Positions 3,020-62,120 are shown, counted from the first letter of the stretch. The stretch: DNA of 64,000 bases from Candidatus Woesearchaeota archaeon (GCA_019322485.1 JAHWIK010000027.1:9871-73870), one strand, 5' to 3'. Made by a program: numbers and translations. The notes: a model not told the origin generated them from the letters alone.

Positions 3020-3052
3020 GGGGTTATACAAGAGACTATTAAGAGGTTCGGA

Positions 3053-5656: not shown

Positions 5657-5657
5657 A

Positions 5658-6218
5658 ATGAGAAAAATAATATTATTAATGCTTGGAATGTTGATTATAT
5701 CACAAATAGCTTATGCAGGAGTTACAAATCCTCTGCCAACTGAATTAAATCTCTTTAAAGGAGAAAGCGGGAGATTTAAGTTTCAAATCCAGACAGTAGC
5801 AAGCAACAGGGAAGTGGAATGCAATTACAGGTTAGCTAAAGAATCTCCTTTGGTAGTAGAATTTGACCCAGCTGGAATAACTGTGCCGGCAGGCACTGTG
5901 AGAGAGGTTCGCGGTACTGTTAGTGTTCCTGAAGAAGTAGATTTTGGAACTTATGAGGAGAAATTCTGTATTTCCTGCAGACCAACTGCAGGCCAAACAG
6001 GCACATCAGTTGCAATAGATACCTGCGACCTGCCAATAAAGGTTAATGTTGTTTCTGAAAGAGCAAGAGATAATATGTTCGTTGCTCCAAAACCAAGTGT
6101 ATTTCCTTGGCAAGCAGCAGTAATGGTATTATTAGTGCTAGCGGTTATTATAGCGCTAGTCGTTGTTTACGTGTTTGGAAAAAGACGTCTATTAAGAAAG
6201 CTTGAAAAGAAACGCTAA
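5658..6218 (+). CDS. Small membrane-anchored beta-sandwich protein
   Basis: ATG lies 2 nt after the upstream stop. Signal peptide MRKIILLMLGMLIISQIAYA, a ~120-aa body, a C-terminal TM AAVMVLLVLAVIIALVVVYVF and a basic tail GKRRLLRKLEKKR. Confidence 0.7.
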   Translation: MRKIILLMLGMLIISQIAYAGVTNPLPTELNLFKGESGRFKFQIQTVASNREVECNYRLAKESPLVVEFDPAGITVPAGTVREVRGTVSVPEEVDFGTYEEKFCISCRPTAGQTGTSVAIDTCDLPIKVNVVSERARDNMFVAPKPSVFPWQAAVMVLLVLAVIIALVVVYVFGKRRLLRKLEKKR

Positions 6219-6333
6219 GATTTTTCTTTGGATTAATTATTCTTAAAATTAAGAACAACAATAGAAATAAAAAAATAAACAGGGATCAAAGATTCCTTAG
6301 TTGCGCTCGTTCCACTCGGCAACAATCTGAAAA

Positions 6334-6456
6334 TTCCTCTTTACCTTATGCTAAAGGAATTTTCATCCGCTTACCTTCCTTTAAGCTAGGGAAAAAAAGG
6401 AACTAAAGCGGATGATTTTTGCTTTAAGGGATGGAAGAAGGCAAAAATCAGATTTT
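6334..6456 (-). repeat. Three-hairpin intergenic element, copy A (inverted orientation)
   Basis: The reverse complement reads TGATTTTTGC(C)...GCAAAAATCA / CATCCGC..TTCCTTT...AAAGGAA..GCGGATG / GAAAATTCCT...AGGAATTTTC, bounded by AATCTGA...TCAGATT. This is the same order of stems as copies C and D. The flanking ATATCAAAAATAAAAAATCTG matches the ATATCAATAAAAA(N)AAATCTG flank of C and D. Confidence 0.8.
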
Positions 6457-6570
6457 TTATTTTTGATATTGATTATCTTCTAATGATTTTTCTTAATACT
6501 GATTTCTTTTTATTGATCCTTAATTTTGATTTTGACAAATTGATTTCTAATATTTTAGACTCTAGATTTC

Positions 6571-14254: not shown

Positions 14255-14317
14255 TTAATAATATTATAGTTGGTAGATTTCTTTTCTCAAGTTAAGTTTC
14301 TAACATCCTAAAAATCA

Positions 14318-14447
14318 ATCTGATTTTTGCTCAAAAAATCAATTTCAGAAAAATAATAAATATGATTTTTGCCTTATTCCTATCTATAAAGCAAAAATCA
14401 TCATCTGTTCTCCTTTATATCCTAGCTTAAAGGAAGGTATGCGGATA
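14318..14447 (+). repeat. Three-hairpin element, copy B (rearranged and 3'-truncated)
   Basis: AATCTGATTTTTGC at 14318-14331, then a second TGATTTTTGCC...AAGCAAAAATCA hairpin (14363-14400). The hairpin-2 remnant TCCTTTA...TAAAGGAAGGTATGCGGAT is nearly identical to copy A. Hairpin 3 is absent and the element runs straight into the TACTTACA array. Confidence 0.65.
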
Positions 14448-14644
14448 CTTACAATTAGGCAAAAATTTGTGCTTGAATACTTACATTAGAGTATAAATTA
14501 ACTTACAAAATACGACATTTACTCATAAAAATTAGAATATTACTTACATTATTGTTCCTATTTACTTACATTAAATGACGAATATACTTAAAAAATAGTA
14601 ATATTTATATATGATTACTTACATTTATGTATAGTATTACTTAA
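14446..14644 (+). repeat. Array of 8 direct TACTTACA(T)/TACTTAA motifs upstream of giant gene 2
   Basis: Motif starts read at 14446, 14478, 14500 (AACTTACA), 14541, 14563, 14585 (TACTTAA), 14616 and 14638 (TACTTAA). Spacings are 32, 22, 41, 22, 22, 31 and 22 nt. All copies are in the same orientation, and the last lies 21 nt before the ATG at 14659. Confidence 0.8.
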
Positions 14645-14658
14645 TTTTAAGAAGATTT

Positions 14659-19150: not shown

Positions 19151-19463
19151 AATAATATGTATAAAATACTTACATAATGTGTTGAAATATCAATTCTAGT
19201 TTGTTTTATTCTTATATAATCTGTATAAATACTTACATAATGTGATTAGGATATTAATTCCAGTCTTTATCTGAGCTACATAATATGTATAAATACTTAA
19301 ATAGTGAGTATAAAATACTTACATAATATGTATAAATACTTATATTTATACTGAGATTTATTACATAATATGTATATTTACCTACATATCATGTCTATAG
19401 GTATACTAATCTGTATACTAGTTTCCAAATAAAGCGAAAGATTTATATAAATGCTACTTACTT
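19151..19463 (+). repeat. Iteron-like array of TACTTACAT cores within a ~21-22-nt unit (TACTTACATAATATGTATAAA)
   Basis: Core starts read at 19167, 19230, 19273 (GAGCTACAT), 19294 (TACTTAA), 19316, 19337 (TACTTATAT), 19359 (TATTACAT), 19379 (TACCTACAT) and 19455 (TACTTACT). Spacings are 63, 43, 21, 22, 21, 22, 20 and 76 nt. The unit contains the partial palindrome TACAT-AAT-ATGTA. Confidence 0.8.
19435..19449 (+). promoter_or_regulatory. BRE/TATA-like promoter element (CGAAAGATTTATATA)
   Basis: Consensus match 37 nt upstream of the ATG at 19486. The last TACTTAC copy (19455) sits between the TATA box and the start codon. Confidence 0.55.
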
Positions 19464-30972: not shown

Positions 30973-30987
30973 TTAATAAGCCAAAAT

Positions 30988-31003
30988 AGAAAAGTATTTA
31001 AAT
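30988..31003 (+). promoter_or_regulatory. BRE/TATA-like element (AGAAAAGTATTTAAAT) upstream of family A1 gene
   Basis: Purine-rich BRE-like run plus TATTTAAAT, 55 nt upstream of the ATG at 31058. Confidence 0.4.
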
Positions 31004-31057
31004 CAAAGTTATAAAAAAGAGTGTATACATAGTTATTAGTATAAAACAGTATAAAAA

Positions 31058-34000
31058 ATGGTGATTTTGATTAAATTTAAACACCTTCAGATGATTGCTA
31101 TTTTCCTTTGTACCTTAATAATAACTATACCTTTCTACACCAGCTCTGTTTATGCTGCAGTGAGCGGGCATATCAAAAGGTATCCAGTTGCTTATGGAAA
31201 CAGTGACGGATTCCCAGGTGCTGCAAGACAATATGATACTATCACTGTCGAAGCACTAGCCAGGATTGATGTAGATGGGGAGTCCCAGCCAGTAAGTGCA
31301 AACCAGGTAAAGCTCTATAATGAAGGCATGGATTTTGATTACTGCGACCCAGACGCAGGCGGGTATTATTTATGTTCGCTTGAGAACTATCCTTACCCTA
31401 CTGGGGGTTTCCAAGGTATAAAAAAATTTGATATAGGCCTTTACCATGAGGGCACCAGGATTGCCGTGGGCCGTGCAAGTGTTGTTCCTGATTTCAAGCC
31501 GCCAAGAATTGAGAGTTTAGCTATAACGCTGCCTAGCGAGGACGCTGTGAAAGGTATTTCAACAACAGGTACAGTCAGCGTGGATTATATTGTCAAAGAT
31601 TATGGCTATCTAAATAGCTGGAGAGACAAGGAATGTTCTGGGATATCTAAGGTTGAATTTTATCTTAACGGATTTACTGGCGGTCCTTTCAAGACTGAAA
31701 ATATAGATACTGGAGATTGTGACTATTCTGACAGTTTCAGTTTTAATGTTCCATCTAATATCATGGTGGGCACAGTAAAGGTCTGTGCAAAAGTCTATGA
31801 CAGGTTTAACCAAGCGTCTTCTGAAGAGGAAGCAAGCCCAAACTGCGTATCCTTTGGTATAGACAGGGAAGGCCCTGGCATCCAGGGAGGCAGCTTTAGG
31901 GTTGTTGATGAAGATGACAGAGATGTCTATTTCTACCACCCTAGAGGAAAGGATGTTGATGTCGTTTTTGTGATAGATGCTGAGGATTTAAACCTAGGCC
32001 AGGGATTAGGTTCAATTAGAATTGATTTAACTACCCTTGATTCTAGTAAGTTAACCAGCAGTAACCTTAACAGCGGCCAGTGCCTAAGGGCCCCAAATTC
32101 AAACCTAACTAATTGTGTAGTATCCATTAATCTTGATTCAGAGGGTGGACTTGTTACCATAACATCTACAGACAGGTATGATAATGTTGATGAGGAGTTT
32201 CTAACAGCAATCTTCACCCTTGATGAAACCGGACCGATTGTTGCGCAGTTTGTCTCTGATAGTATTTTTATGGATGGACTCTATGCCAAGCAATATGGAA
32301 ATAATTTTAGCGCCTTGATTAGCGACGGCGGCGGGATTGGTGTTGATTCTGATGATGTAAAACTGGTTTTCTATGATGGATTTTCTTATGACAGCTCACA
32401 AGACCTCAATGTAGTAACTAATTGTACTGGCACGCCTGGAGCTACAGCATGCCTTTGGGAGGGGGTTGATTTGAGTCCTGGTTCAGATATGGCTGTCAAA
32501 GCGCGAATTGAAGGAAATGACATGCTTGAGAATGCTATTGCTGCTAATGAATTTAATGTAACTGTTGATATAACACCCCCTTTGGTCACTGAGGCTGATA
32601 TCTCAATTGAAGCGCTAGGAAGTCTTACTGGAGACTTAACTAGCGGAGGCGGGATAAATATCACAGCCAGGATAAAAGATTTCACCCAGATATTTGCTCA
32701 TGCTGATCTTTCCAGGTTTATTACAGGTGGGGAGAGGGTTCCTGCTGACAGCTGCATTAAAGTTAGTGATGAATGGGCTGATGAAACTGAATGGGTATGT
32801 TCATGGCTCCGTATGATAGAAGCCCCTGGGCCTGATTCTGGCATAGATATGGATATTGAGTTTGAGGATGTTCCTGGCAATATAGTAACAGTGACAAAAA
32901 CAGGATTAGAGCTTTATGAGCGGGTTGTGGAGGAGGTTCCTGACTATTATGACCTAGATATCAGAGAGGATTTACTTGAGCTCATTCCCATTGATATGGA
33001 GGTTATTGAAAGCCTGACTACACAATTCTATTACCAACTTGTACCTTTTGAGTTATTATATAATGGCCGATGTTCTGGAGATGAGATTGAAATTACGAAT
33101 ATCAGGCTTTTTGGGTGCGAGGGGTATGCTTATCATGCTCCACGTTCCGATGACCCCAGGAGTTATACTGGCTTTATCCAGTTTGCATTAGACACAAATG
33201 AAATTATTAATTATGATGACTATGTAGAGATAGGGGTTGATTCAACCTGCCAGATAGAATTTAATGTGAAATGCCATCAAAAATCTTACTTGCAGCCTGA
33301 GCCAGAAGAGATAAGGCTCAACATACCTATAGTGGTTGGCGATGATGTTGGAGATGACCTAACAGACGATATAGAAGATTTGAAAGACTGGGCTGAAACA
33401 GATTTCTGGGCAATGTGGGAATTCATGGACCAAGTGGTGACTATACTGAAGAATATATGCAAGATAAGGCAGCATATATACCTGATAGCAACGACAATAG
33501 CGCTTATTGGAGCTATTTTCGCTAATTGTTGTGAAAAAGGTGCTGCAGCATCTGCATACTGCTGCCCAGCTGAGATTACTTCAAGCGGGATACATATAAC
33601 ATTTACTGAACCTCAGGAGGCTGGAGCACCAGGAACTACTTTTGAAGATAAGATGAAAAAACTTTGTGCCTTTGTTGGCTGCCAGAAAAAAGACGAGCCA
33701 GGCCTTAGAGCAGAAGACCTCCCTAGCGATACTGCTGGTGCCGGTGATGATGCTCCTGACCCAACACCTAGGGAACTACTTTGCAACAAGCTTGCAAAGC
33801 TAGGCAAAAATTGGATTACTGAATATGACTTTGGTAGTTCCGGCGCTGCACAAGGTGCGGAAACTTATGTAGATGCTGCATGGTCAACATCTGTCTTACA
33901 ATTATCAATGAAAAGCCTTATTTTTGCATCAATCTGCTTATGTCTTCCAGGGATAGTATATAATGTAAGGAAATATAGAGAGCTTGTATGCTGGAAAGCT

Positions 34001-34378
34001 ATCTGTTACAGAGACCTTGTTACACTTGGTCTGCCAAAAGATGAATGCGATAAACAGTATGAATACCATATGTGTGTTTATGTCCTAGGTGATGCTATTG
34101 GATGGCTGTTGTTTAATTTTATTGGAGCTGCGATACAGGCAATAGTACAAATGTTGATTAATCCTGTTGCAGCCCTGTGGGCATGGACTCGTACTGGGCT
34201 GCTTAGGAAGTGCCATACATCTCTTTCAAAAACAGTAAAATGGAGTACATGGTGCGCTGCGTATGCAGTCTGGCAATTGCTCACAAACATCGCAGAAATT
34301 GCAGAGCTTGAAGAGACCTATGAGAATATGAAGTGGGACCATGAAACAAACATGTGCGAAGAGCTTTTAGATGATTGA
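31058..34378 (+). CDS. Family A1: signal peptide + Ig-like array + Cys-rich polytopic C-terminal domain (1106 aa)
   Basis: Signal MIAIFLCTLIITIPFYTSSVYA. Units are delimited by DFKPPRI, DREGPGI, DETGPIV and DITPPLV. C-terminus: IYLIATTIALIGAIFANCC ... ICLCLPGIVYNVRKYRELVCWKAICY ... ECDKQYEYHMCVYVLGDAIGWLLFNFIGAAIQAIV. Paralogous to 43343 and 50680. Confidence 0.8.
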   Translation: MVILIKFKHLQMIAIFLCTLIITIPFYTSSVYAAVSGHIKRYPVAYGNSDGFPGAARQYDTITVEALARIDVDGESQPVSANQVKLYNEGMDFDYCDPDAGGYYLCSLENYPYPTGGFQGIKKFDIGLYHEGTRIAVGRASVVPDFKPPRIESLAITLPSEDAVKGISTTGTVSVDYIVKDYGYLNSWRDKECSGISKVEFYLNGFTGGPFKTENIDTGDCDYSDSFSFNVPSNIMVGTVKVCAKVYDRFNQASSEEEASPNCVSFGIDREGPGIQGGSFRVVDEDDRDVYFYHPRGKDVDVVFVIDAEDLNLGQGLGSIRIDLTTLDSSKLTSSNLNSGQCLRAPNSNLTNCVVSINLDSEGGLVTITSTDRYDNVDEEFLTAIFTLDETGPIVAQFVSDSIFMDGLYAKQYGNNFSALISDGGGIGVDSDDVKLVFYDGFSYDSSQDLNVVTNCTGTPGATACLWEGVDLSPGSDMAVKARIEGNDMLENAIAANEFNVTVDITPPLVTEADISIEALGSLTGDLTSGGGINITARIKDFTQIFAHADLSRFITGGERVPADSCIKVSDEWADETEWVCSWLRMIEAPGPDSGIDMDIEFEDVPGNIVTVTKTGLELYERVVEEVPDYYDLDIREDLLELIPIDMEVIESLTTQFYYQLVPFELLYNGRCSGDEIEITNIRLFGCEGYAYHAPRSDDPRSYTGFIQFALDTNEIINYDDYVEIGVDSTCQIEFNVKCHQKSYLQPEPEEIRLNIPIVVGDDVGDDLTDDIEDLKDWAETDFWAMWEFMDQVVTILKNICKIRQHIYLIATTIALIGAIFANCCEKGAAASAYCCPAEITSSGIHITFTEPQEAGAPGTTFEDKMKKLCAFVGCQKKDEPGLRAEDLPSDTAGAGDDAPDPTPRELLCNKLAKLGKNWITEYDFGSSGAAQGAETYVDAAWSTSVLQLSMKSLIFASICLCLPGIVYNVRKYRELVCWKAICYRDLVTLGLPKDECDKQYEYHMCVYVLGDAIGWLLFNFIGAAIQAIVQMLINPVAALWAWTRTGLLRKCHTSLSKTVKWSTWCAAYAVWQLLTNIAEIAELEETYENMKWDHETNMCEELLDD

Positions 34379-34421
34379 GGTGAATATTAAATATCAATAA
34401 AAACAAATCATTAAAAAAATA

Positions 34422-34546
34422 TGATTTTTGCTTGATGCAAACGTTAAAGCAAAAATCATCCGCAGTGTTCCTTTATGCCTCAGCCTAAAGGAAAGCAAGC
34501 GGATGAAAATTCCTTTATACTAAGGAAGAAGGGAATTTTCAGATTT
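34422..34546 (+). repeat. Three-hairpin intergenic element, copy C
   Basis: H1 is TGATTTTTGCTT/AAGCAAAAATCA (12 bp). H2 is CATCCGC/GCGGATG with inner TTCCTTTA/TAAAGGAA. H3 is GAAAATTCC/GGAATTTTC. All arms checked by hand as exact reverse complements. Confidence 0.85.
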
Positions 34547-34580
34547 GATTGTCATAATTAACAATAAATCAAGAACAAAA

Positions 34581-36224
34581 ATGTCAGAACAATCAGCCAT
34601 ATCAAAAGTAACCTTTATCCTAGTGTTTGTTGTAATTGCTATGCTGACTGCCAGCTGGTCTGGCTTGAAGAATATGGGCAGTGCAGCAAGTATTACTGGT
34701 GCAGTAACTTATTCTGATGGAGATATAATGGTTGTAGGTTATGATGATGGTACTACCTTCACATATCAGTATGATGATGGAAATTGGTACGGCACTCATT
34801 CCGGGCCGGATGCCCCCCCAGCTAATATGGACGCAATAATAGACCGTGCTAGTGGACGTGATGACTTTGATGTTACATTGAATTCTGGTGGAGAAATAAC
34901 AAAAATGGACGATGATAGTGGAGCAGGAGATGATGGCGGCGCTGGAGGAGGAGATGACGGTGGTGGTGACGCAACAGCTGGAGCAGGAGATGCTGGAGGA
35001 GATAGTAGTGGCGCTGGAGGAGATACACCTGCTACACCAGACCCCTATGAAGTAGACACCGATGGGGATGGGTTTAGTGATGGACAGGAAGCTGAGCATC
35101 AGACTGACCCTAATAACCCGGATTCCCATGGTGAAGGTATGGGCGATATAGAAGCTATGAGTGATGATGACGAGGATGCAGAGGAGCAAGACGACGCAGC
35201 ATCCGATGCAGCTGACAGGGGATGGGGTGCAGCAGAACAAGCTTACGCAACAATGCATCCTGGTGCTGGTGACCTGGCATGGCAGGGATATTGGGAAGAT
35301 ATAGTTGGACAGGATTTGTCCTTTGTTAATGCTGAAGACCTGCCTGACTGGGCAGCTTATTCCTTAGAAGGGTATGAAGGCTATATATGCGAGCGGATGC
35401 TTGGTTTTGAAACATCAGATTATTTCGTACAGGATTATCCTGGGCATTACCAGGGGGGTGATTTCCCTTCTATTACTAATATTATCTATGCTACTGGTGA
35501 AAGGACGCATTATCCCGTACAACAATTTACAGAATGTACTGGGAATAGTGATTATTATGATGGAGAATGGTTCCCTAAGATTACTGCAACTGGTGCAACT
35601 GCCCCTACTGCTGCGGATGCACTAGGTTACTTGTATAAGTTTTCATGGTATGTTGGCCATCCTTTCAGCGAAGACCAGATTGATGAGATGCAGGGGTGGG
35701 AGATTGATGATGAAGGTCTTGACCACAATGGGAATCTGTCATATAAGATATACTTGTTTACTTATCAGTGTGATGACCCAGATGCGTTGGATGTAGACGT
35801 CCCTACACTATCTGATGGGGCAAAAGCTTATATCCTGCCTAGTGAGGCAACATCCTTTAAGGTGAACCCAGGAGCATATCATTCATATACTCATTCATTT
35901 TATGACAAAGCATATATTTATAAGATTTGCATTAGATTTGACAATGACTATGGATGGTCACATGATGGAGATATTGAGGGTTCATGGCCTCCAGAATGTA
36001 AACCAAGCGATATAGATGGTGATGGTGGGTTGGTAGTTGAGTCAACTTCAACTCTTAGCATGCCTCCTGGATTTAATTTCTTCCCGCCAGATACAACCAG
36101 CGCGGGAAGCACTGATGACGGGGTGACATCTACAACAACAAGCGGCAGTGATGGTGACCCTCAGGACTGCACTAGTTGTCCTGCCGGGTTGCAGGGCGGC
36201 GGCGATGTTTGGGAAACTGGATAA
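34581..36224 (+). CDS. Family B1: N-anchored acidic protein with TSP type-3-like Ca-binding repeat and shared C-terminal domain
   Basis: The track start at 34545 is a TTG inside the repeat element, and the first ATG is 34581 (MSEQSAISKVTFILVFVVIAMLTA...). D/G-rich region; DTDGDGFSDGQEAEHQTDPNNPDS resembles a thrombospondin type 3 / bacterial Ca-binding repeat. The C-terminal GYLYKFSWYV and YIYKICIRFDND match B2. Confidence 0.75.
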   Translation: MSEQSAISKVTFILVFVVIAMLTASWSGLKNMGSAASITGAVTYSDGDIMVVGYDDGTTFTYQYDDGNWYGTHSGPDAPPANMDAIIDRASGRDDFDVTLNSGGEITKMDDDSGAGDDGGAGGGDDGGGDATAGAGDAGGDSSGAGGDTPATPDPYEVDTDGDGFSDGQEAEHQTDPNNPDSHGEGMGDIEAMSDDDEDAEEQDDAASDAADRGWGAAEQAYATMHPGAGDLAWQGYWEDIVGQDLSFVNAEDLPDWAAYSLEGYEGYICERMLGFETSDYFVQDYPGHYQGGDFPSITNIIYATGERTHYPVQQFTECTGNSDYYDGEWFPKITATGATAPTAADALGYLYKFSWYVGHPFSEDQIDEMQGWEIDDEGLDHNGNLSYKIYLFTYQCDDPDALDVDVPTLSDGAKAYILPSEATSFKVNPGAYHSYTHSFYDKAYIYKICIRFDNDYGWSHDGDIEGSWPPECKPSDIDGDGGLVVESTSTLSMPPGFNFFPPDTTSAGSTDDGVTSTTTSGSDGDPQDCTSCPAGLQGGGDVWETG

Positions 36225-40668: not shown

Positions 40669-40973
40669 TGGATTTATTTTAATTTGATATTATTTAAATG
40701 TTATTGTTTGCTGGATAGTCAATAAGAAAAAAATAATCACTAACTGCACAAACACTGTAGCCAACCAAAGGTTGGTTACTGTACAGAGTTTCACCTTATT
40801 TATTTTTAATTTGTTTTAATAATCTAAAATTAAAAAATATCAACACAACCATATGTACAACTAGTTCTGCATCTTTTTCTGCACCCAATGATAGATTCTT
40901 AGGGTGATAATTAAAATCAAGGTGCGCAAACAATTCTAATAAATTTTTTAGAAAGATTTAAATATATGCAAAG

Positions 40974-41248: not shown

Positions 41249-43341
41249 TGAATAAGAGAATGAACAAAAAATCCCAGATTACTTTGTTTATTATAATCGG
41301 AATAGTTATGCTAACCTCAGTTGGCACGTATATATACTTTAGAGCCTCTATCAGGAGGGCAGAGATAATGCCTGAACTTGTAGCTGCTGAGGAAGTGCCA
41401 AGGGCATTCAACCCAATACAGGTGTTCATAGAAAGCTGTGTGAGCAAGGTAGGTAAGGATGGGATGGAACTGCTTGGCAGCCAAGGGGGCTACATAAACA
41501 TTGAAAGAGCCGGTATTGGACCAGGCATAACACCTACTGAAGGAAATGCTGTAGCCTTTTCAAGAGGTTCTGGGTTAAATGTTCCCTACTGGTTCTATTT
41601 GGAGAGCGACAATAAATGCATTGGCAATTGTGTGTTTAGTACGCAAAAACCAGAACTGTACAAAGGCAGGCTGCTGTCAATCGAGGGGCAGCTTGAGGAG
41701 TATGTTAATGCCAATCTAAAGGAATGCTTTAATGAATTTAAGGTATTGAAAACAAGGGGCTACATAATTGAGGAGCTTGGAGATATTAATACAAAGGTTA
41801 GTGTAACAGAAGAAGAGGTTGTTGTTTTGGTAGAATACCCAATCAAGGCTAGGGCTCTTGATGCAGTGCTTGAGCTTGAAAGGTTTCCAGTGGTAATACA
41901 AGTTAATTTAAAGGACATTTATGAATTGGCTATGCTGATAACAAACCTCGAGGCTGAATACAGATATCTTGAAAAGGACGCGCTAAACCTCATAACCGGG
42001 TTTTCTGGCAAGGATATGGAAAAGCTGGCGCCAATGTCAGATGTTGGCCTGGAGTTTGGCAACAGACTTTACTGGAGAAGAGGCGCAATTATAGACAATC
42101 TAAAGGGCATGCTTTCAGCCTATATCCCTTTGCTGCAGGTAGAGGGTACGCGCAATTACAGGCCATTGAGCTTTCCTGGTGAAAGCCTGAAGGAATCATT
42201 ATACAATCAACAGATGCTGATTCCAAACAGTGAGCTGTATAACCTTGATGTTTACTTCACTTATCTTGGATGGGAGCCATGGTTTGACCTTAATTGCAGG
42301 GGGGAGATATGCCAGCCAGAATCTATTTCAAGCAGCATAATAACCCTGATGGGCTTGCAGCGATACAACTTTGTCTATGACCTTAGTTTCCCTGTGATGG
42401 TAGAGATACATGACCCAGACGCATTTAAGGGCCTAGGTTATGACTTTAGGTTTATGCTTGAGGCAAATATCCGAAATAACGAGCCTATGCCAGAGGTATT
42501 CAGCCCACTACAGGTTATTGAGCCACAGGTTTCTTTGCTGTGTGATTTAGAAAAGAGAAACAGCGGCTATATGGATATAGATATAACTGATATGATGACT
42601 GCTGAGCCAGTTGATGATGTGAGGGTTTCTTTCAGCTGCGCTGAGGAGAGCTGTTTTATGGGTATTGCGGAGGGAGGCAGCTTAGTAGAAAGATTCCCTG
42701 TTTGCCTTGGAGGGATTGTTTCCTTCCTTAAAGAAGGCTACCTGGGTTATTCTCAATTCCTGAACACAAAGCTTGACGAAAAAGCTGAGGTTAAGGTCAC
42801 CCTTAAACCATTGGTTGAGAAGCAGTTTATGATTAAGAAAAAGAGGGTTGTTAAAAATCCAGAAGGGTGGGTTTTCATTGATACTCCGTTTACACTTGGA
42901 AGAAAGGAAAGCGCATTCATAAGTCTTGTAAGAAAACCCGGCCCAGGCGAGGATGCATACCAGGCTGCTGCTGAATACAGCGGCGGTGTTGGAGAGATAA
43001 CCCTGGCGGATGGAGACTATGAGATTGATATACAGCTTTACACAAATGAAACAATTATTATTCCAGAAGAGGAGCGCTGCGAAGAGGTTGCGTTTATTGA
43101 GCAGTGCTATACAATTGAAGAGCTTAAGTTTAATGAAACCTTTCCAAATGGCGGCTTGAAGCTGAATCATACATTTACAGCTGATGACCTTAAGAGTGAT
43201 ATGATAACGTTTTATGTTGTAAATACCTACATAACAGGCATTCCTGAAGCTAACAGGGTTGTTGAAGACCTTGAGCAAATAGAAAAGGTAGAGGAATACT
43301 CTACAGCCCATGCTAATAGATTAAAACCAACAGTTGAATAA
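41248..43341 (+). CDS. Family C2: 697-aa protein with class III signal-peptide-like N-terminus
   Basis: MNKRMNKKSQITLFIIIGIVMLTSVGTYIYF. The core FIESCVSKVGKDGMELLGSQGGYINIE...PTEGNAVAF...VPYWFYL... is paralogous to C1 and C3. Confidence 0.8.
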   Translation: MNKRMNKKSQITLFIIIGIVMLTSVGTYIYFRASIRRAEIMPELVAAEEVPRAFNPIQVFIESCVSKVGKDGMELLGSQGGYINIERAGIGPGITPTEGNAVAFSRGSGLNVPYWFYLESDNKCIGNCVFSTQKPELYKGRLLSIEGQLEEYVNANLKECFNEFKVLKTRGYIIEELGDINTKVSVTEEEVVVLVEYPIKARALDAVLELERFPVVIQVNLKDIYELAMLITNLEAEYRYLEKDALNLITGFSGKDMEKLAPMSDVGLEFGNRLYWRRGAIIDNLKGMLSAYIPLLQVEGTRNYRPLSFPGESLKESLYNQQMLIPNSELYNLDVYFTYLGWEPWFDLNCRGEICQPESISSSIITLMGLQRYNFVYDLSFPVMVEIHDPDAFKGLGYDFRFMLEANIRNNEPMPEVFSPLQVIEPQVSLLCDLEKRNSGYMDIDITDMMTAEPVDDVRVSFSCAEESCFMGIAEGGSLVERFPVCLGGIVSFLKEGYLGYSQFLNTKLDEKAEVKVTLKPLVEKQFMIKKKRVVKNPEGWVFIDTPFTLGRKESAFISLVRKPGPGEDAYQAAAEYSGGVGEITLADGDYEIDIQLYTNETIIIPEEERCEEVAFIEQCYTIEELKFNETFPNGGLKLNHTFTADDLKSDMITFYVVNTYITGIPEANRVVEDLEQIEKVEEYSTAHANRLKPTVE

Positions 43342-43342
43342 G

Positions 43343-46300
43343 ATGTCAATCAAGCAATTAAAGTTAATCGCATTGTTCATGAGCAGCTTAATGATAATGA
43401 TACCTATGTATTCTGCTTCTATTCTTGCATATACCGGCATTAAGAGGATTGAGGCTAGCGGCCAGGATGGCATCGAGGGCTATATTAGAAATGAGGATGC
43501 TATTGACTTCAGGGTAATTGCTAATATTGATGATGATCTTGATGGGGTAACATCAGACCAGGTTAAGATTCCTGAGGCTGCTGTGGAGTTTAGCAGCTGC
43601 ATGCCTGGTTTGGAAGGCTATGAATGCGAACTCAGGCTTCCTGATACAGGAACCTGGACATACAGAGACCTAAACAGGATTCCAGTTCTATTATATGACG
43701 AAGGTGACAACCAGGTTGGCGGGCGCACTGCCACACTTGTTGTGGACAATAATGCCCCTGATGTCAGGTTTTTTAGTATCCTGCCTAAGCTGACTTCTTC
43801 GGGAGATATGACATTTACTTACTCTGTCGAGGATTATGCTTATAGAAAAGGTGATTCAAGCAGATGTGTCGGGCTTGACAGGATTGTATTTTATACCTTT
43901 GATTCATCCTTTGTCGAGCAGGTCAACATTGATACTGATGATTGCGATGTTTCAGGCAGTGTTTCAGTTGACAACAGTATCCTGCCTGAGGGAGGCAATG
44001 TGATTTATGTCAAGGCTGTTGACAAATTTGAGCAGGAATCAGAGCCTGAAGAGGATTCAATTGTTATTGACAGGACAGCGCCAGTAATAGGCAGCTTGAA
44101 GATTGTTGATACCAATGGAAACAGCATTGATTATATCGGCAGTGATACAATAAAAGGCGAGGTTATTGTTAACATAAGCGGGCCTGGCCTGGATACCAAC
44201 AGCGTGGCAGGTGATTTCTCTGAGCTGAACTATGAAAGGGGGAATTACAAAAACCTCAGAGCAGTTATATGCAATGTATTGCATGACACAGCCCTATGCA
44301 GCTGGTCTGTTGAGCTTAAGCTTGACAGCGGCGGTATGAAGTATATGACTATAAATGCATCTGATAATGTTGGGAATAAAGCAACAGTAAGCTTGTCCAA
44401 GGGATTTGTGTTTGATGATGCAGGGCCGGTTATAAACGGTATAACCACAGATAAAATACATGGCGGGATTAGCTATGCCTCTTCGCAGGACAATACATTT
44501 GTGGCTTCTATATCTGAGCCAGGTGTTGGAGTTGATGCAAGCAACGTATTCCTGCACATAGGATCTTTGTTCCTGCCAGCTGACAGCTGCGAGGCTGATG
44601 CCTGCTATTGGTATGAGGTTGGTATTGGCCAAGAGGGTAGTGTAAGAGTCTGGATTGGTGATGACACAACTGACAGGCTTGGAAATGCTGCAGAGGAATT
44701 TTCCACTGATATAATTGTTGATGCAACTAAGCCTGCATTAACTTCCCTGAATGTGAAAACAATCGGTGGTGTGCTGCCTGCTTACAGGTATGTAAAGACC
44801 TTTGACAGCCTGGAGATAACAGCTGAGATTGTTGAAGCAAATGTCATCACAGAAGCTTATGGTGATTTCTCATCAATAATTGACGGTGCTGATAAGGTTC
44901 TTGCTGATGAATGCACTAAAACAGACGGCACCTATACCTGCAAATGGACAACTGATCCAATAGATGTTGAGGGCTATATTGATAGTTCCATTGACTTTAG
45001 CTTTATTGATATATCAGGTAATGTCCTTACAGCAAGTGCTCCTGTTGAGGTTTACGAGCTAATCGATACTGAACTTGATTATTGGAAACATGATGTGAGT
45101 TGCTCGCCAGAGCTGATTGACAGGCAGACAACAGCACTTGTAAACCACAGGATTTACTGCCATATCGGCCTTTCAGGAAATGCTGAAACAATTGACATAA
45201 ATCTTGAGGGATGCGACGGACCTACTGAATATTTAGAAGAGGCGCCTGTGCTGTTTAATGATGAGATTGGCAGTACTGACCCTTACCTTAAGTTTACGCT
45301 CAGGGCTGAAGAGCTGACTATTAGTGAGCTGGAGTTTGACTGCAAGCTGAGGATTGTTTCAAAGATAAGTGAGCGCATAACAAGGTATCCAGAGGTGGAG
45401 AATGTTTCCATCCAAATCGGATTCTACAACCTGCCTCTTGGGGAGTATGGCGCTGGTGTTGACAAAAAGATCGAAGATGCCAAAGAGTTTGCGTGGTATA
45501 TTGGTGACTGGGTTGAGGATGTCAATGAGATACTGCACTATGGCCAGGCTATCTGCAATATGGCTAATTCGCTTATAAAGCTCTTTGGTGGTTTATCAGC
45601 AATTGGAAGTGCACTTTCCCTGCTTGGGACAACATCCAAAACAGCAGATGAGGTCAGGAAAGAGGTGCAGCGTGCACAACAAGGTGTGAGTGGACTGACT
45701 AAGGAGCAATGGGCTAAGAGCGAGGGTTTCAATAAATTCTGCAAATTCTTCTCATGCAGGCTTTACTATGATGATGCCTTCGAAGGTCCAACTGCCGAAG
45801 CAATAGGCAAGTGGCAGCGTACGGTTCTTGAGCGAGCTAACTGGGTATCTACTGGCGGCGGAAAGATTCGTGCAATAGAGGCATGGTCCAATAAAGAGAA
45901 CCGCAACAAGATGAACATCTACACTGGCAAGCTTAACCCCAAGGAAAGCATTGTGATTAGCACCCTGACATTATGCCTGCCTGGAATTGTTTACAATCTC
46001 AATAAGCTAAGGCAGATTCAATGCATGTATGTTGACTGCATGCAGACTTATGCTACACAAGGGCTTCCTTTGAAAGCCTGCGAAGACCAGAAGGAATACG
46101 CAACCTGCAAGTATTGGTGGGGGGAGATATTCCAGTTACTTCCATTTACTGGCTTGTGGAATGAGATGATTGGTATGGTTAAAAAAGCATTGTCAAGTCC
46201 ATTTGGTTTCATTGACATAGTTTTAGGCTATGTGTGCAGACCTCTGTATGAAAAAGACAAAATGGGAGGGCCAGCTGCTATATGCCTGATAAATGATATC

Positions 46301-46387
46301 GCTGGTCTGATTGCAGATGTTGCATCAGACCTTGAAGGTATTGGTGACCAGTGGGAAATAAAGGACGATTATTGTGATAATATTTGA
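43343..46387 (+). CDS. Family A2 (about 1014 aa)
   Basis: The track start at 43334 is TTG, and the first ATG is 43343, 1 nt after the C2 stop. Signal LIALFMSSLMIMIPMYSASILA. Units are delimited by DNNAPDV, DRTAPVI, DDAGPVI and DATKPAL. C-terminus: TLTLCLPGIVYNLNKLRQIQCMYVDC...ACEDQKEYATCKYWWGEIF. Confidence 0.8.
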   Translation: MSIKQLKLIALFMSSLMIMIPMYSASILAYTGIKRIEASGQDGIEGYIRNEDAIDFRVIANIDDDLDGVTSDQVKIPEAAVEFSSCMPGLEGYECELRLPDTGTWTYRDLNRIPVLLYDEGDNQVGGRTATLVVDNNAPDVRFFSILPKLTSSGDMTFTYSVEDYAYRKGDSSRCVGLDRIVFYTFDSSFVEQVNIDTDDCDVSGSVSVDNSILPEGGNVIYVKAVDKFEQESEPEEDSIVIDRTAPVIGSLKIVDTNGNSIDYIGSDTIKGEVIVNISGPGLDTNSVAGDFSELNYERGNYKNLRAVICNVLHDTALCSWSVELKLDSGGMKYMTINASDNVGNKATVSLSKGFVFDDAGPVINGITTDKIHGGISYASSQDNTFVASISEPGVGVDASNVFLHIGSLFLPADSCEADACYWYEVGIGQEGSVRVWIGDDTTDRLGNAAEEFSTDIIVDATKPALTSLNVKTIGGVLPAYRYVKTFDSLEITAEIVEANVITEAYGDFSSIIDGADKVLADECTKTDGTYTCKWTTDPIDVEGYIDSSIDFSFIDISGNVLTASAPVEVYELIDTELDYWKHDVSCSPELIDRQTTALVNHRIYCHIGLSGNAETIDINLEGCDGPTEYLEEAPVLFNDEIGSTDPYLKFTLRAEELTISELEFDCKLRIVSKISERITRYPEVENVSIQIGFYNLPLGEYGAGVDKKIEDAKEFAWYIGDWVEDVNEILHYGQAICNMANSLIKLFGGLSAIGSALSLLGTTSKTADEVRKEVQRAQQGVSGLTKEQWAKSEGFNKFCKFFSCRLYYDDAFEGPTAEAIGKWQRTVLERANWVSTGGGKIRAIEAWSNKENRNKMNIYTGKLNPKESIVISTLTLCLPGIVYNLNKLRQIQCMYVDCMQTYATQGLPLKACEDQKEYATCKYWWGEIFQLLPFTGLWNEMIGMVKKALSSPFGFIDIVLGYVCRPLYEKDKMGGPAAICLINDIAGLIADVASDLEGIGDQWEIKDDYCDNI

Positions 46388-60038: not shown

Positions 60039-61895
60039 ATGGCTAATAAAGAAAAACAACCTAAAAAAGAGGAAAAACCTAAAGCTCCTGAAGGTGCAAA
60101 GGCAAAAGAACAGGAGATTCTTTCTAAGCTTCCAAAAGAAGCGCAGGAAAAGCTTAAAGAGATAAAGTCAAAGCTGGATAAATTCCAGAAAAGGGTAATT
60201 GAGAAGTTTGATAAGTATATTATGGGTATTGCTCTGCTGCCTCCACCAAAGCCAAAAAAGGAAGGTGAAAAGGTAGACAAGGACAAGATAAATGTTCTGG
60301 TGCTTGTTGATGATTCTGACAGTAAAAAGATGGGTAAGGGTGAGCTGAAGAAGAAGCTCCTTACAATTATAGACGGCATTGCAGTTGACATCGACAAAAA
60401 CATCTTTCCTGATGTTGTTCTATTATCTGATTTATGGCAGTCATGCTATGACGGTAAATATGATTTACTGCAGTTAATTGCCTTATCAGCCCCTATATTT
60501 GACAAGGGAATGCTTTCAGCAGTTAAGATAGCTGAAGTCCATAAGACTATGGTTCTAAAGAAGTTTGAGAAGTATATTGTGAGCTATGTTTTGGCAGGGA
60601 GCCTTGTACAAGGAAGGGCAACAAAAGAAAGTGACATTGATGTCTGGATTGTGATTGATGATACTGATGTCAAAAAGATGACAAGGGCTGAGCTAAAGGA
60701 TAAGCTAAGGGCAATTATCATAGGAATGGGCATTGAGGCTGGTGATATTACAGGAATAAGAAACAAGATAAACATACAAGTGTATATCCTAACTGACTTC
60801 TGGGACAGCCTGAAAGAAGCAAATCCAATTATCTTCACCTTGTTAAGGGATGGTGTTCCATTCTATGACAGGGGCGTATTTATGCCATGGAAACTGCTGC
60901 TAAAGATGGGAAAGATAAAGCCGTCTGCAGAGGCAATTGATATGTTCATGAGTTCTGGGGACCAGATGATGAAGAGGGTAGAGTTCAAATTAAAGGACAT
61001 AGGGATGGAAGACATCTATTATGCATTATTAACTCCATCACAGGCTGCATTAATGCTTTATGGTGTTGCACCGCCTTCGCCAAGGGAAACAGCAGAGCTT
61101 ATGAGGGATATCTTTGTTAAAAAGGAGAAATTGATGGAAGATAAATTCATTAAGATACTTGAGAATATTATACAGGTAAGGAAAGACATTGAGCATGGAA
61201 CCAAAAAAGGACTAACAGGAAAAGAGGTTGATGAGCTATTGGGTGATGCGGATAAATACCTAAAAAGGATAAAGAGGCTTTTCTCACAGATAGAAAAAAC
61301 AAGGGAAGAAGAAGACATGGTTCATATCTATGACAGTATTGTTACAATAATAAGGGATGTCCTAAGGATGGAAGGTGTTGAACGTGTAAGTGATGTTGAG
61401 GTAGTGAAAATTTTTGAGGACGAGCTTATTGCGCAGGGAAAGATACCAGCAAAGTTCTTAAGAAGCCTGAATGAGATAATAAAAGCAAAGAAAGACTATG
61501 ACGATAAAAAGCTAACAAAACAGGAAGTTGAGAAGGTAAAGCAGGAAGCTGGAGCATTCGTTAAATTCCTGGTTGAGCACATGCAAAGAAAACGAGGCAG
61601 GGAATTGGAAAGAGCAAAGATAAGGGTAAAGCATGGCAACAGGTTTGGAGAGGTTCTTTTGCTTGGAGATGTTGCTTTTATCATACATGATATTGACAAG
61701 GAAGAAAAGGAAATGAGCAAGGCAAAGATTAATCCTGACGGCAGCTTAGGAACAACACACACCAGCTCATTAGAGGAATTGGAAAAATCTCTTGCAAAGG
61801 TTGAGATTCCGCCAAAGGTATTCATCAAGGAACCAATCTTTGAGGACTTGAAGAAGATATTTGGGAAGGATGTTGAAGTTCTGGTTAATTATTAG
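60039..61895 (+). CDS. Nucleotidyltransferase (Pol-beta superfamily) domain protein, 618 aa
   Basis: GSLVQGRATKESDIDVWIVIDD is the G-S...D-x-D minimal nucleotidyltransferase motif. An upstream degenerate copy INVLVLVDDSD has the same downstream layout. The N-terminus is Lys-rich and the C-terminal half is helical. Confidence 0.65.
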   Translation: MANKEKQPKKEEKPKAPEGAKAKEQEILSKLPKEAQEKLKEIKSKLDKFQKRVIEKFDKYIMGIALLPPPKPKKEGEKVDKDKINVLVLVDDSDSKKMGKGELKKKLLTIIDGIAVDIDKNIFPDVVLLSDLWQSCYDGKYDLLQLIALSAPIFDKGMLSAVKIAEVHKTMVLKKFEKYIVSYVLAGSLVQGRATKESDIDVWIVIDDTDVKKMTRAELKDKLRAIIIGMGIEAGDITGIRNKINIQVYILTDFWDSLKEANPIIFTLLRDGVPFYDRGVFMPWKLLLKMGKIKPSAEAIDMFMSSGDQMMKRVEFKLKDIGMEDIYYALLTPSQAALMLYGVAPPSPRETAELMRDIFVKKEKLMEDKFIKILENIIQVRKDIEHGTKKGLTGKEVDELLGDADKYLKRIKRLFSQIEKTREEEDMVHIYDSIVTIIRDVLRMEGVERVSDVEVVKIFEDELIAQGKIPAKFLRSLNEIIKAKKDYDDKKLTKQEVEKVKQEAGAFVKFLVEHMQRKRGRELERAKIRVKHGNRFGEVLLLGDVAFIIHDIDKEEKEMSKAKINPDGSLGTTHTSSLEELEKSLAKVEIPPKVFIKEPIFEDLKKIFGKDVEVLVNY

Positions 61896-61914
61896 AAAAT
61901 ATCAATAAAAAATA

Positions 61915-62044
61915 AATCTGATTTTTGCTTAAGGAGTATGTTAAAGCAAAAATCATCCACTGCAGTCCATTATATTCTAACTTAAAGGGAAGTAAGTGGA
62001 TGAAAATTCCTTTATAGTGGTTGTGAAGGGAATTTTCAGATTTA
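61915..62044 (+). repeat. Three-hairpin intergenic element, copy D
   Basis: H1 is CTGATTTTTGCTT(A)/(T)AAGCAAAAATCA. H2 is CATCCAC/GTGGATG, a compensated change relative to copy C. H3 is GAAAATTCC/GGAATTTTC. Closing AAATCTG/CAGATTT. Confidence 0.85.
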
Positions 62045-62120
62045 ATTGTTTTAATTAATAATAAATCAAAACAATAAATTTATATAATGGTTAGAATTAA
62101 CTTTTTTCTGGGGTGGTTAG

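What the first reader, a model, noticed from the sequence alone, without database searches (positions are those of the whole stretch)
61896..62090. Family of ~125-nt three-hairpin elements: stems conserved, loops free, one compensated base-pair change
Copies C (34422-34546) and D (61915-62044) align end to end, including ~20 nt upstream (ATATCAATAAAAA) and ~40 nt downstream (CAGATTT(G/A)ATTGT..TAATTAA.AATAAATCAA.AACAA). All three stems are preserved while the loops differ. H1 loops are GATGCAAACGTTA versus AAGGAGTATGTTA, and H3 loops are CTAAGGAAGAA versus GTGGTTGTGAA. In H2 the pair CATCCGC/GCGGATG (copies A and C) becomes CATCCAC/GTGGATG in D, a double substitution that keeps pairing. Selection on structure rather than sequence points to a functional RNA or DNA hairpin cluster, such as a terminator or insulator, a processing site, a MITE with structured transcript, or a small RNA. 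I know of no named element matching it.
Basis: seen in the sequence. Interest (0 to 1): 0.65.

Follow-up and report, generated by a model that had tools for sequence, protein, structure and literature searches.

The report
Four-way-junction intergenic repeat of Woesearchaeota
The three-hairpin element is real: it is one copy of a previously undescribed, modular DNA repeat that litters the spaces between genes in a small group of marine-sediment DPANN archaea, comes and goes between close relatives, and most likely is selfish DNA recognised by an unknown factor, not an RNA gene.

Summary
The window has three full copies (6323-6455 minus strand, 34417-34546, 61914-62043), one truncated copy (14358-14446) and one solo 5' end.

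A covariance model built from them finds 92 copies, 73 of them unique. They lie in a related Woesearchaeota genome and in 68 marine or estuarine sediment contigs, and all are intergenic. No Rfam family, tRNA, plasmid, phage or viral contig matches.

- **Fold:** an 8-bp inverted repeat encloses the three hairpins, predicting a fully paired four-way junction on either strand.
- **Conservation:** the junction-side arms of hairpins 1 and 3 are invariant in sequence. Only hairpin 2 and the closing stem covary.
- **DNA-level behaviour:** hairpin 2 occurs in at least five unrelated versions and in flipped orientation, and modules reassort between copies.
- **Turnover:** two orthologous sites are filled in one species and empty in its relative.
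- **Strand:** G-U and A-C counts show no preferred strand, and the element has lower G+C than the genome.
- **Target:** another small repeat inserts precisely into hairpin 3.

Best reading (about 0.6): a REP/BIME/BOX-like interspersed mosaic repeat whose conserved junction an unknown factor recognises. A role as terminator or insulator is possible but untested. It is a new family of a known kind, of moderate interest.

The parts
61914..62043 (+). Copy D, four-way-junction core. Closing stem 61914-21 pairs with 62036-43. H1 is 61920-61954, H2 is 61955-62001 and H3 is 62002-62037.
   Evidence: Sequence, RNA and DNA folds, covariance-model hit of 140 bits, pattern hits.
61896..61913 (+). 5' flank of copy D. 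It starts right after the TAG stop of the upstream gene (61893-61895). It holds one ATCAAT box (61901-61906) followed by an A-run.
   Evidence: In the window's intergenic DNA, boxes occur only beside elements.
62044..62075 (+). 3' flank of copy D, shared with copy C (AATTGT..TAATTAA.AATAAATCAA.AACAA). The downstream gene's own TATA box (TTTATATAAT, 62079-62088) lies beyond it and is conserved in the orthologous locus L181.
   Evidence: Alignments.
34417..34546 (+). Copy C, four-way-junction core. It sits in the 202-nt spacer between genes 31058-34378 and 34581-36224.
   Evidence: Covariance-model hit of 145 bits. The paralogous gene 43334-46387 overlaps its downstream neighbour instead of having a spacer.
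6323..6455 (-). Copy A, four-way-junction core, in inverted orientation between two plus-strand genes.
   Evidence: Covariance-model hit of 129.6 bits.
6456..6545 (-). Box array (AATCAAT/AATCATT plus A-runs) 5' of copy A.
6275..6323 (-). Module X (GTTGCCGAGTGGAACGAGCGCAACTAAGGAATCTTTGATCCCTG..), joined to the closing stem of copy A. It recurs in 9 places; every one inspected abuts a closing-stem half.
14358..14446 (+). Copy B, truncated. H1 and H2 are present. H3 and the 3' closing arm are replaced by a TACTTACAT-rich promoter region.
   Evidence: Covariance-model hit of 62 bits.
14317..14332 (+). Solo 5' end (AATCTGATTTTTGCTC), 36 nt upstream of copy B. The same solo end lies 49-61 nt upstream of full copies in 7 other loci.

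Best explanation
The element is one member of a lineage-specific family of small, non-coding, interspersed mosaic repeats. It is an archaeal counterpart of the bacterial REP/BIME, BOX and Correia elements, found in a narrow clade of marine-sediment Woesearchaeota (DPANN).

**Shown:**
- The core is about 130 bp. An 8-bp inverted repeat encloses three hairpins, predicting a fully paired four-way junction on either DNA strand.
- The junction-side arms are invariant in sequence: TGATTTTTGC, GCAAAAATCATC, GATGAAAATTCC and GGAATTTTCAGA.
- Everything distal to the junction is exchangeable: loops, the inside of H2 and the orientation of H2.
- Copies are gained, lost or replaced at orthologous intergenic sites between species.
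- The core combines with other small modules: box arrays, modules X, Y and Z, and nested inserts.

**Inferred:**
- The invariant junction is the recognition site of a trans-acting factor, such as a transposase, recombinase or structure-specific DNA enzyme.
- Copies persist because only lineages with an intact junction are propagated or converted.
- The co-directional orientation bias reflects selection against polar effects. The reverse strand of the box array is rich in T-runs, which are archaeal termination signals.
- Any effect on neighbouring genes (termination, insulation, transcript stabilisation) is secondary.
For: **Family size and range**
- There are 92 non-overlapping covariance-model hits, 73 of them unique. 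They lie in the window, in 12 loci of Woesearchaeota MAG Yap2000.bin4.8 and in 68 sediment-metagenome contigs.
- All copies inspected are intergenic.

**Turnover at orthologous sites**
- The window spacer 30973-31057 (85 nt) is empty. The orthologous L120 site holds about 370 nt of boxes, core and module Y.
- The L141 spacer 3218-3233 is empty. L156 holds a copy there, flanked by a 15-nt direct repeat.
- Copy D's site is also occupied in L181, where the flanking protein is 92.7% identical. The occupant is a different variant: a G-C changed H1, a short H2, a nested insert and module Y.

**DNA-level signatures**
- G-U 72 against A-C 57, so no strand preference.
- The fold is equally good on both strands as DNA.
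- H2 occurs flipped.
- At least five unrelated H2 interiors combine with the same H1 and H3 loop types.

**Constraint**
- Paired columns are 87% identical and unpaired columns 53%.
- 19 of 43 pairs never vary. Covariation sits mainly in H2 and the closing stem.

**Target behaviour, as with REP/BIME**
- An 83-nt two-hairpin insert is 100% identical in 5 places. It always sits between GAAAATT and CCTTT of H3, without a target duplication.

**Context**
- Orientation is biased: 30 co-directional against 11 anti in tandem gene pairs. Convergent gene pairs are not enriched (7 convergent, 6 divergent).
- A published census reports a Woesearchaeal genome among the highest archaeal MITE densities, at 105 per Mb (PMC11602168).
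Against: - No transposase or other multi-copy protein appeared among 412 ORFs of the roughly 440 kb sampled.
- There is no general target-site duplication: flanking direct repeats are no longer than in permuted controls.
- No paralogous pair exceeds about 90% identity, so there is no sign of a recent burst.
- Because copies are not recent, the near-perfect conservation of the H1 and H3 arms across species may need selection at each site. That would favour a host function.
- The 2:1 to 2.7:1 orientation bias, and the placement flush with stop codons, would also suit a functional punctuation element.
- The element boundaries are fuzzy, because box number varies between copies.
Confidence: 0.6

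Rival explanations
1. The element is a host-selected 'gene punctuation' device acting in cis. In this reading it works as a bidirectional transcription terminator or insulator, or as a transcript-end stabiliser. It may have spread as mobile DNA but is now kept by selection at each site.

The T5 tract of H1 reads GATTTTTGC on both strands, and H3 carries a T4 tract. Both are archaeal oligo-T termination signals. The hairpins would protect 3' ends.
For: - Copies start within a few bases of the upstream stop codon. The distance from stop codon to core peaks at 42-49 nt.
- Orientation is biased, 30 co-directional against 11 anti.
- The T-tract-bearing arms are the invariant part.
- Paralogues are at most about 90% identical, yet their stems are intact, which hints at in-situ constraint.
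- The downstream genes keep their own TATA box beyond the element.
Against: - Orthologous sites differ in occupancy between close relatives, so no site needs the element.
- Convergent gene pairs are not enriched.
- Archaeal termination needs only a T-run, which the AT-rich spacers have anyway. That does not explain an invariant four-way junction.
- Copy C sits in a spacer directly after a gene whose paralogue overlaps its downstream neighbour.
- Flipping and swapping of H2 shows that most of the structure is dispensable.
Confidence: 0.2
2. Each copy is a small-RNA gene. Its product would be a cloverleaf-like RNA of about 130 nt with paired ends, whose variable loops act as guide or recognition sequences. 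It would be transcribed from a TATA-like TTTAAAAA box about 30 nt upstream and terminated at the T-rich 3' flank.
For: - A TTTAAAAA-type box lies about 31 nt before the closing stem in many copies, and a T-rich stretch follows the 3' arm.
- The RNA fold has z-scores of -4.8 to -5.8.
- Stems are kept while loops vary.
Against: - No strand asymmetry between G-U and A-C.
- The reverse strand folds equally well.
- H2 is inverted in some copies.
- Loop types reassort, and H3 tolerates 83-nt and 112-nt inserts.
- G+C is below the genome's.
- About a quarter of copies point against both neighbouring genes.
- Box number and spacing vary between copies.
- No Rfam family matches.
- No RNA run was available to support the idea.
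Confidence: 0.08
3. The element is a chromosomal binding array for a host DNA-binding protein, for example a nucleoid or recombination factor. The protein would read the AAATCA-type motif, which recurs in the boxes, the closing stem and the H1/H2 junction. In this reading the hairpins are a by-product of the palindromic arrangement of sites.
For: - The motif AAATC(A/T)(A/T/G) recurs in the boxes, in the 5' closing arm (AAATCTGA) and at the H1/H2 junction (AAAATCATC).
- In the window's intergenic DNA, boxes occur only beside elements.
- The junction arms are conserved as sequence.
Against: - H2 covaries, which a simple site array would not require.
- No candidate protein was identified.
- Presence or absence at orthologous sites argues against a positional role.
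Confidence: 0.07

Closest known systems
REP/BIME elements of enterobacteria (palindromic units combined into bacterial interspersed mosaic elements; mobilised by RAYT Y1 transposases)
   Same: - Short intergenic palindromes in many copies, combined with other small motifs into mosaics.
- Both orientations occur.
- Stems are conserved more than loops.
- They serve as specific insertion targets for other mobile elements. IS1397 and ISKpn1 insert into REP loops (my own knowledge). Here an 83-nt insert goes into H3.
- Possible side-effects on termination and mRNA stability.
   Different: - This is an archaeal (DPANN) host, and the element is AT-rich.
- Three different hairpins are closed by a fourth helix into a four-way junction. 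REPs are single G+C-rich hairpins or doublets.
- There is no conserved GTAG-type 5' tetranucleotide.
- No RAYT-like gene was found in the DNA sampled.
BOX elements of Streptococcus pneumoniae (boxA-boxB(n)-boxC), with RUP and SPRITE
   Same: - Modular build with exchangeable or repeated middle modules.
- About 100-200 nt, intergenic, and predicted to have stable secondary structure.
- No coding capacity and an unknown mobilising enzyme.
   Different: - No sequence similarity.
- BOX elements fold into one long stem-loop, not a four-way junction.
- The host is bacterial.
Correia elements (CREE/NEMIS) of Neisseria and other bacterial MITEs; archaeal MITEs such as Sulfolobus SM1-SM4
   Same: - Small non-autonomous repeats with terminal inverted repeats (here 8 bp).
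- Filled and empty orthologous sites.
- Placed next to promoters or terminators, where they can influence neighbouring genes.
   Different: - Correia elements and classic MITEs have clear TIRs derived from a known IS, a fixed target duplication (TA for Correia) and subfamilies more than 90% identical.
- Here no general target duplication is seen.
- No parent IS is known.
- Copies are at most about 90% identical.
PATEs (palindrome-associated transposable elements, IS200/IS605 derivatives) of haloarchaea
   Same: - Archaeal, hairpin-based and without a target duplication.
- The nested 83-nt insert has two similar hairpins and seamless site-specific insertion. That is the IS200/IS605-like pattern.
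   Different: For the three-hairpin element itself, the two outer hairpins (GATTTTTGC and GAAAATTCC) are unrelated to each other. IS200/IS605 ends have similar left and right hairpins. No TnpA gene was seen.

Membership tests
Any Rfam RNA family | Covariance-model score at or above the family's gathering threshold | tested here: not met
   There were no hits at gathering thresholds over the whole window. For copies C and D the best sub-threshold scores were 15-18 bits against thresholds of 43-630. Five related loci gave no hit at E <= 0.01.
tRNA / tmRNA (cloverleaf) | Recognised by ARAGORN, with tRNA arm dimensions | tested here: not met
   ARAGORN finds no gene in the window. The arms are 9-12 bp with 12-16-nt loops.
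MITE | Terminal inverted repeats | tested here: met
   The 8-bp repeat AAATCTGA/TCAGATTT is present in nearly all copies, and 91% of cells are paired. It is short, and the outer box arrays vary.
MITE | Target-site duplication of fixed length | tested here: inconclusive
   Flanking direct repeats are no longer than in permuted controls (mean 7.6 against 7.2 nt). One demonstrably recent copy, L156, has a 15-nt direct repeat.
MITE | Filled and empty orthologous sites | tested here: met
   Window site empty against L120 filled. L141 empty against L156 filled. L141 filled against a different sequence in L156.
MITE | A related autonomous IS with the same ends, encoding a transposase | tested here: inconclusive
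   No multi-copy or transposase-like ORF appeared among 412 ORFs of the sampled loci. Solo ends occur only 36-61 nt from full copies, never flanking a gene.
REP/BIME | Mosaic combination of palindromic units with other short motifs in intergenic DNA | tested here: met
   The core combines with box arrays and with modules X, Y and Z in varying order and orientation.
REP/BIME | Association with a RAYT (TnpA_REP) gene flanked by REPs, and a conserved 5' tetranucleotide | not testable with these tools
Archaeal intrinsic terminator | An oligo-T tract (five or more T) on the non-template strand, at which transcripts end | tested here: inconclusive
   A T5 tract is present on both strands within H1. 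Transcript 3' ends could not be examined, because no RNA run was found.
Structured RNA under selection for pairing | Compensatory changes above background, and tolerance of G-U on one strand only | tested here: inconclusive
   Covariation is above the shuffled background (64 cells, 0 of 500 shuffles). It lies mainly in H2 and the closing stem, and the alignment was fitted to the model. RNAalifold on its own predicts only H1 and H3. G-U 72 against A-C 57 gives no strand signal.

The most novel reading that the evidence does not exclude
The invariant, fully paired four-way junction has a 2-bp GA/TC core that could branch-migrate. It may be the substrate of an undescribed DNA enzyme in DPANN archaea that reads both sequence and structure. 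That would define a new kind of hairpin or junction-based mobile element. Its hairpin modules would be swapped and flipped at the junction, and its composites (boxes, junction, promoter/leader module Y) would be used by the hosts as portable gene-punctuation cassettes.
Probability: 0.2. Interest if true: 0.65.

Novelty: new variant of a known kind. Interest (0 to 1): 0.4.

Why it matters
DPANN archaea have some of the smallest and most compact cellular genomes. Even so, about a quarter of the intergenic DNA in this window consists of this one repeat family, and related genomes carry dozens of copies.

The family shows three things:
- Small structured repeats like the bacterial REP/BIME and BOX elements also exist in these archaea.
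- The spacers between their genes are rebuilt quickly from a small set of modules.
- An unidentified factor must read a conserved four-way-junction sequence.

Finding that factor could reveal a new mobilisation or recombination mechanism. It would also help to separate true regulatory RNAs from repeats when annotating DPANN genomes. On present evidence this is a new family of a familiar kind of element, not a new principle.

Tried and rejected
**Searches that found nothing**
- Rfam at gathering and permissive thresholds: only chance sub-threshold hits such as mir-315 and ceN80.
- ARAGORN: nothing.
- Plasmid and phage collections: no match.
- Viral contigs: no match to the core pattern. The six matches to an H3-only pattern were unrelated terminator-like hairpins. 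The nested insert had none.
- Literature search: no description of this family.

**RNA classes rejected by inspection of the sequence**
- Hammerhead ribozyme: no contiguous CUGAUGA core except in one copy.
- Hairpin ribozyme: no internal loops.
- H/ACA sRNA: no pseudouridylation pocket.

**Tests that came out negative or uninformative**
- Target-site duplication: no general signal.
- Autonomous partner: no multi-copy ORF in the sampled loci, and no distant pair of ends flanking a gene.
- Expression: no RNA run holds the stretch.
- Laying DNA contigs of three sediment runs showed only that the H3 part recruits many contigs. No clean empty allele appeared.
- The paralogous-operon argument for copy C holds only for the upstream gene (E = 2e-66). 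The downstream genes are not clearly homologous (E = 0.008).

**Limits of the searches**

Full report
**1. The observation**

- Copy D aligns with copy C (34413-34582) over 170 nt at 77% identity (family D6).
- The quoted loop sequences are correct, and so is the H2 change CATCCGC/GCGGATG to CATCCAC/GTGGATG.
- Copy A lies on the minus strand at 6323-6455.
- Copy B (14358-14446) has H1 and H2 but no H3.
- A solo 5' end sits at 14317-14332.
- The end motifs are far above chance: 3 matches against 0.21 expected, and 6 against 0.22.
- Every copy is intergenic.

**2. Anatomy**

AAATCTGA upstream of H1 pairs with TCAGATTT downstream of H3, which encloses the three hairpins.

The dinucleotides GA and TC sit at all four corners of the junction (..CTGA|TTTTTGC, GCAAAAA|TCATC, GATGA|AAATTCC, GGAATTT|TCAG..). 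As a result no base is left unpaired, and two alternative registers with equal numbers of pairs exist. The prediction is therefore a perfect four-way junction whose centre could migrate by 2 bp.

Both strands fold this way, as RNA (z -4.5 to -5.8) and as DNA (z about -6).

**3. The family**

No Rfam family, tRNA, plasmid or phage matches.

A pattern scan of one genome per species found true relatives only in Woesearchaeota MAG Yap2000.bin4.8, in 12 loci. One locus, L076, is syntenic with window 3042-6092 at about 80% nucleotide identity. The window therefore comes from a related Woesearchaeote.

A stricter pattern found 68 contigs in a few marine and estuarine sediment metagenomes, and none in viral contigs.

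A covariance model built from 13 copies finds 92 non-overlapping hits, 73 of them unique.

**4. What is conserved**

On 55 distinct full copies, 93.4% of cells pair.
- 12 pairs and 64 cells have changes on both sides, a level reached by 0 of 500 shuffles.
- Sliding the 3' partners drops pairing to 41-63%.

The signal is uneven.
- 19 of 43 pairs never vary, and 12 of these are among the 19 pairs of H1 and H3. The junction-side arms GATTTTTGC/GCAAAAATC and GAAAATTCC/GGAATTTTC are essentially invariant.
- The double changes lie in H2 (CCGC/GCGG, CCAC/GTGG, CTGC/GCAG, CATCAGC/GCTGATG, CTTA/TAAG), at three positions of the closing stem, and at two H1 positions. One of these is the variant GAGTTTTGC/GCAAAACTC.
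- RNAalifold, left to itself, predicts only H1 and H3.
- Paired columns are 87% identical between copies and unpaired columns 53%.

So 'stems conserved, loops free' is right. But for two of the three hairpins it is the sequence that is conserved, and this points to sequence-specific recognition of the junction.

**5. Evidence for DNA-level behaviour**

- G-U pairs (72) and A-C mismatches (57) are about equally common, so neither strand is favoured as an RNA.
- H2 exists in at least five unrelated interior versions. These combine freely with the same H1 and H3 loop types, so modules reassort.
- H2 is inverted relative to H1 and H3 in L176. The short H2 type occurs with its asymmetric GC bulge on either side, a flip/flop pattern.
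- The element's G+C (0.27-0.38) is below the window's (0.35-0.44). That is unlike stable RNAs in AT-rich genomes.

**6. Turnover**

| Site | State in one genome | State in its relative |
|---|---|---|
| Window 30973-31057 vs L120 (genes about 79-82% identical) | 85-nt spacer, empty | about 370 nt of boxes, core and module Y, beside a conserved proximal promoter |
| L141 3218-3233 vs L156 (about 82% identical) | empty | copy flanked by a 15-nt direct repeat |
| L141 2077-2201 vs L156 | copy present | unrelated sequence |
| Copy D site vs L181 (flanking protein 92.7% identical) | copy D | different variant: G-C changed H1, short H2, five boxes, nested insert, module Y |

At the copy D site both genomes keep the gene's own TATA box downstream of the element.

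Window copies are closer to copies in other genomes (80-86%) than to each other (77%). No paralogous pair exceeds about 90% identity, so there has been no recent burst.

**7. Mosaic context**

- The 5' side carries 1-6 AATCAAT/AATCATT boxes with A-runs. In the window's intergenic DNA these occur only beside elements and in the element's orientation.
- The 3' side carries one of several things: the same boxes inverted; module X (window 6275-6323, 9 places); module Z (8 places); or module Y (44 BLAST matches).
- Module Y is about 95 nt and looks like a promoter plus leader. It contains the palindrome TGCACAACTAATTGTGCA, and where a gene follows it ends a fixed distance before that gene's ribosome-binding site and start codon.
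- Solo 5' ends lie 36-61 nt upstream of eight full copies.
- An 83-nt two-hairpin insert is 100% identical in five places. It always lies between GAAAATT and CCTTT of H3, with no duplication. The element is thus itself a specific target for another, recently active repeat.

**8. Position and orientation**

In the element's own frame the counts are as follows.

| Gene arrangement | Copies |
|---|---|
| Tandem genes, element co-directional | 30 |
| Tandem genes, element anti | 11 |
| Convergent genes | 7 |
| Divergent genes | 6 |

- Convergent pairs are not enriched, which argues against a dedicated terminator.
- The co-directional bias fits selection against the anti orientation. In that orientation the T-rich reverse of the box array faces the incoming polymerase. 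This step is inference.
- The distance from the upstream stop codon to the core peaks at 42-49 nt, which means the box-bearing unit starts at the stop codon.

**9. What could not be done**

- No RNA run holds the stretch, so expression and 3' ends are unknown.
- DNA contigs from three sediment runs showed only that the H3 part recruits many contigs.
- No multi-copy or transposase-like ORF appeared among 412 ORFs in the sampled loci.
- There is no general target duplication.
I therefore could not measure the copy number in the window's own genome or look for a partner gene.

**10. Interpretation**

The best reading (about 0.6) is a lineage-specific, non-coding, interspersed mosaic repeat, working like REP/BIME, BOX or Correia elements.
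- The invariant four-way-junction arms would be the recognition site of an unknown trans-acting factor. Everything distal to them is free to drift, swap and flip.
- A birth-and-death process, in which only lineages with an intact junction propagate, explains saturated loops alongside pristine junction arms.
- The weak point is that no very recent copies were found. In-situ selection for a host function (terminator, insulator or transcript-end stabiliser) therefore stays a serious rival (about 0.2).
- An independent small-RNA gene (about 0.08) and a plain protein-binding array (about 0.07) are less likely.

**11. Novelty**

- The literature search found no description of this family.
- A 2024 census of prokaryotic MITEs notes that a Woesearchaeal genome has one of the highest archaeal MITE densities. 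The general phenomenon is therefore known at census level (PMC11602168).
- Earlier notes of this scan reach the same reading for copy C (e1-4808309) and for what appears to be the same family in a relative (e1-1117357). They also report several other hairpin-repeat families in Woesearchaeota. These are leads, not independent evidence.

I class the element as a new variant of a known kind, because of its unusual four-way-junction architecture and module shuffling. Interest is moderate.

Noticed in passing
L006:4696-4778, L076:4529-4609, L099:6763-6845, L170:4752-4834, L181:3045-3127: An 83-nt insert made of two similar hairpins (TAGTAAACGCAA..TTGCGTTTACTA and TAGTAAGCGAAA..TTTCGCTTACTA). It is 100% identical in five places. 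It always sits between GAAAATT and CCTTT of hairpin 3, with no target duplication. This looks like a recently active, site-specific, IS200/IS605-derived (PATE-like) element.
   Followed up: partly
L076:4624-4735 and L122:4552-4662: A G+C-rich insert of about 112 nt inside the loop of hairpin 3. The two copies are 85% identical, with what look like compensatory changes. No Rfam family matches. It could be a structured RNA or another repeat.
   Followed up: partly
window 40806-40873; 44 BLAST matches across the related loci, e.g. L022:182-272 and L099:6882-6971: Module Y is about 95 nt and follows many elements. It has an AT-rich TATA-like stretch, the palindrome TGCACAACTAATTGTGCA and repeated GTGATAAAA motifs. 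Where a gene follows, it ends a fixed distance before that gene's ribosome-binding site and ATG. It looks like a portable promoter or leader, or a shared operator region.
   Followed up: partly
window 6275-6323; L165:156-203; L166:9495-9543 and 6 more: Module X (GTTGCCGAGTGGAACGAGCGCAACTAAGGAATCTTTGATCCCTG) is a second repeat. In every copy inspected it is joined to one half of the element's closing stem, on either side.
   Followed up: partly
L167:2095-2155, L142:3383-3443, L123:1207-1267 and 5 more: Module Z is a 61-nt two-hairpin repeat (GTGTATAAATTATGAAATAATTTACTACAC TAGAAAAATGCGTTAGCATTTTTC). Its copies are 97-100% identical, and all eight BLAST matches begin at the 3' closing arm of an element.
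   Followed up: no
window 14440-14650 and 19208-19387: Arrays of (A/T)TACTTACAT motifs lie upstream of the giant-protein genes at 14659 and 19486. Copy B of the element is truncated exactly where the first array starts.
   Followed up: no
L183:1904-2042 versus L163:1316-1450: Two contigs have an identical 110-nt left flank. Their element copies differ by about 13%, and their right flanks differ. This could mean the element evolves much faster than its flank, a rearrangement at the element, or an assembly join at a repeat.
   Followed up: no
window 61974-62055 (runs X1-X3): The hairpin 3 part recruits 5-10 times more metagenome contig depth than the flanking single-copy gene. The sequences in front of it are varied, so hairpin 3 also circulates as a solo module, as at L089:78-176 upstream of a ribosomal protein gene.
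   Followed up: partly
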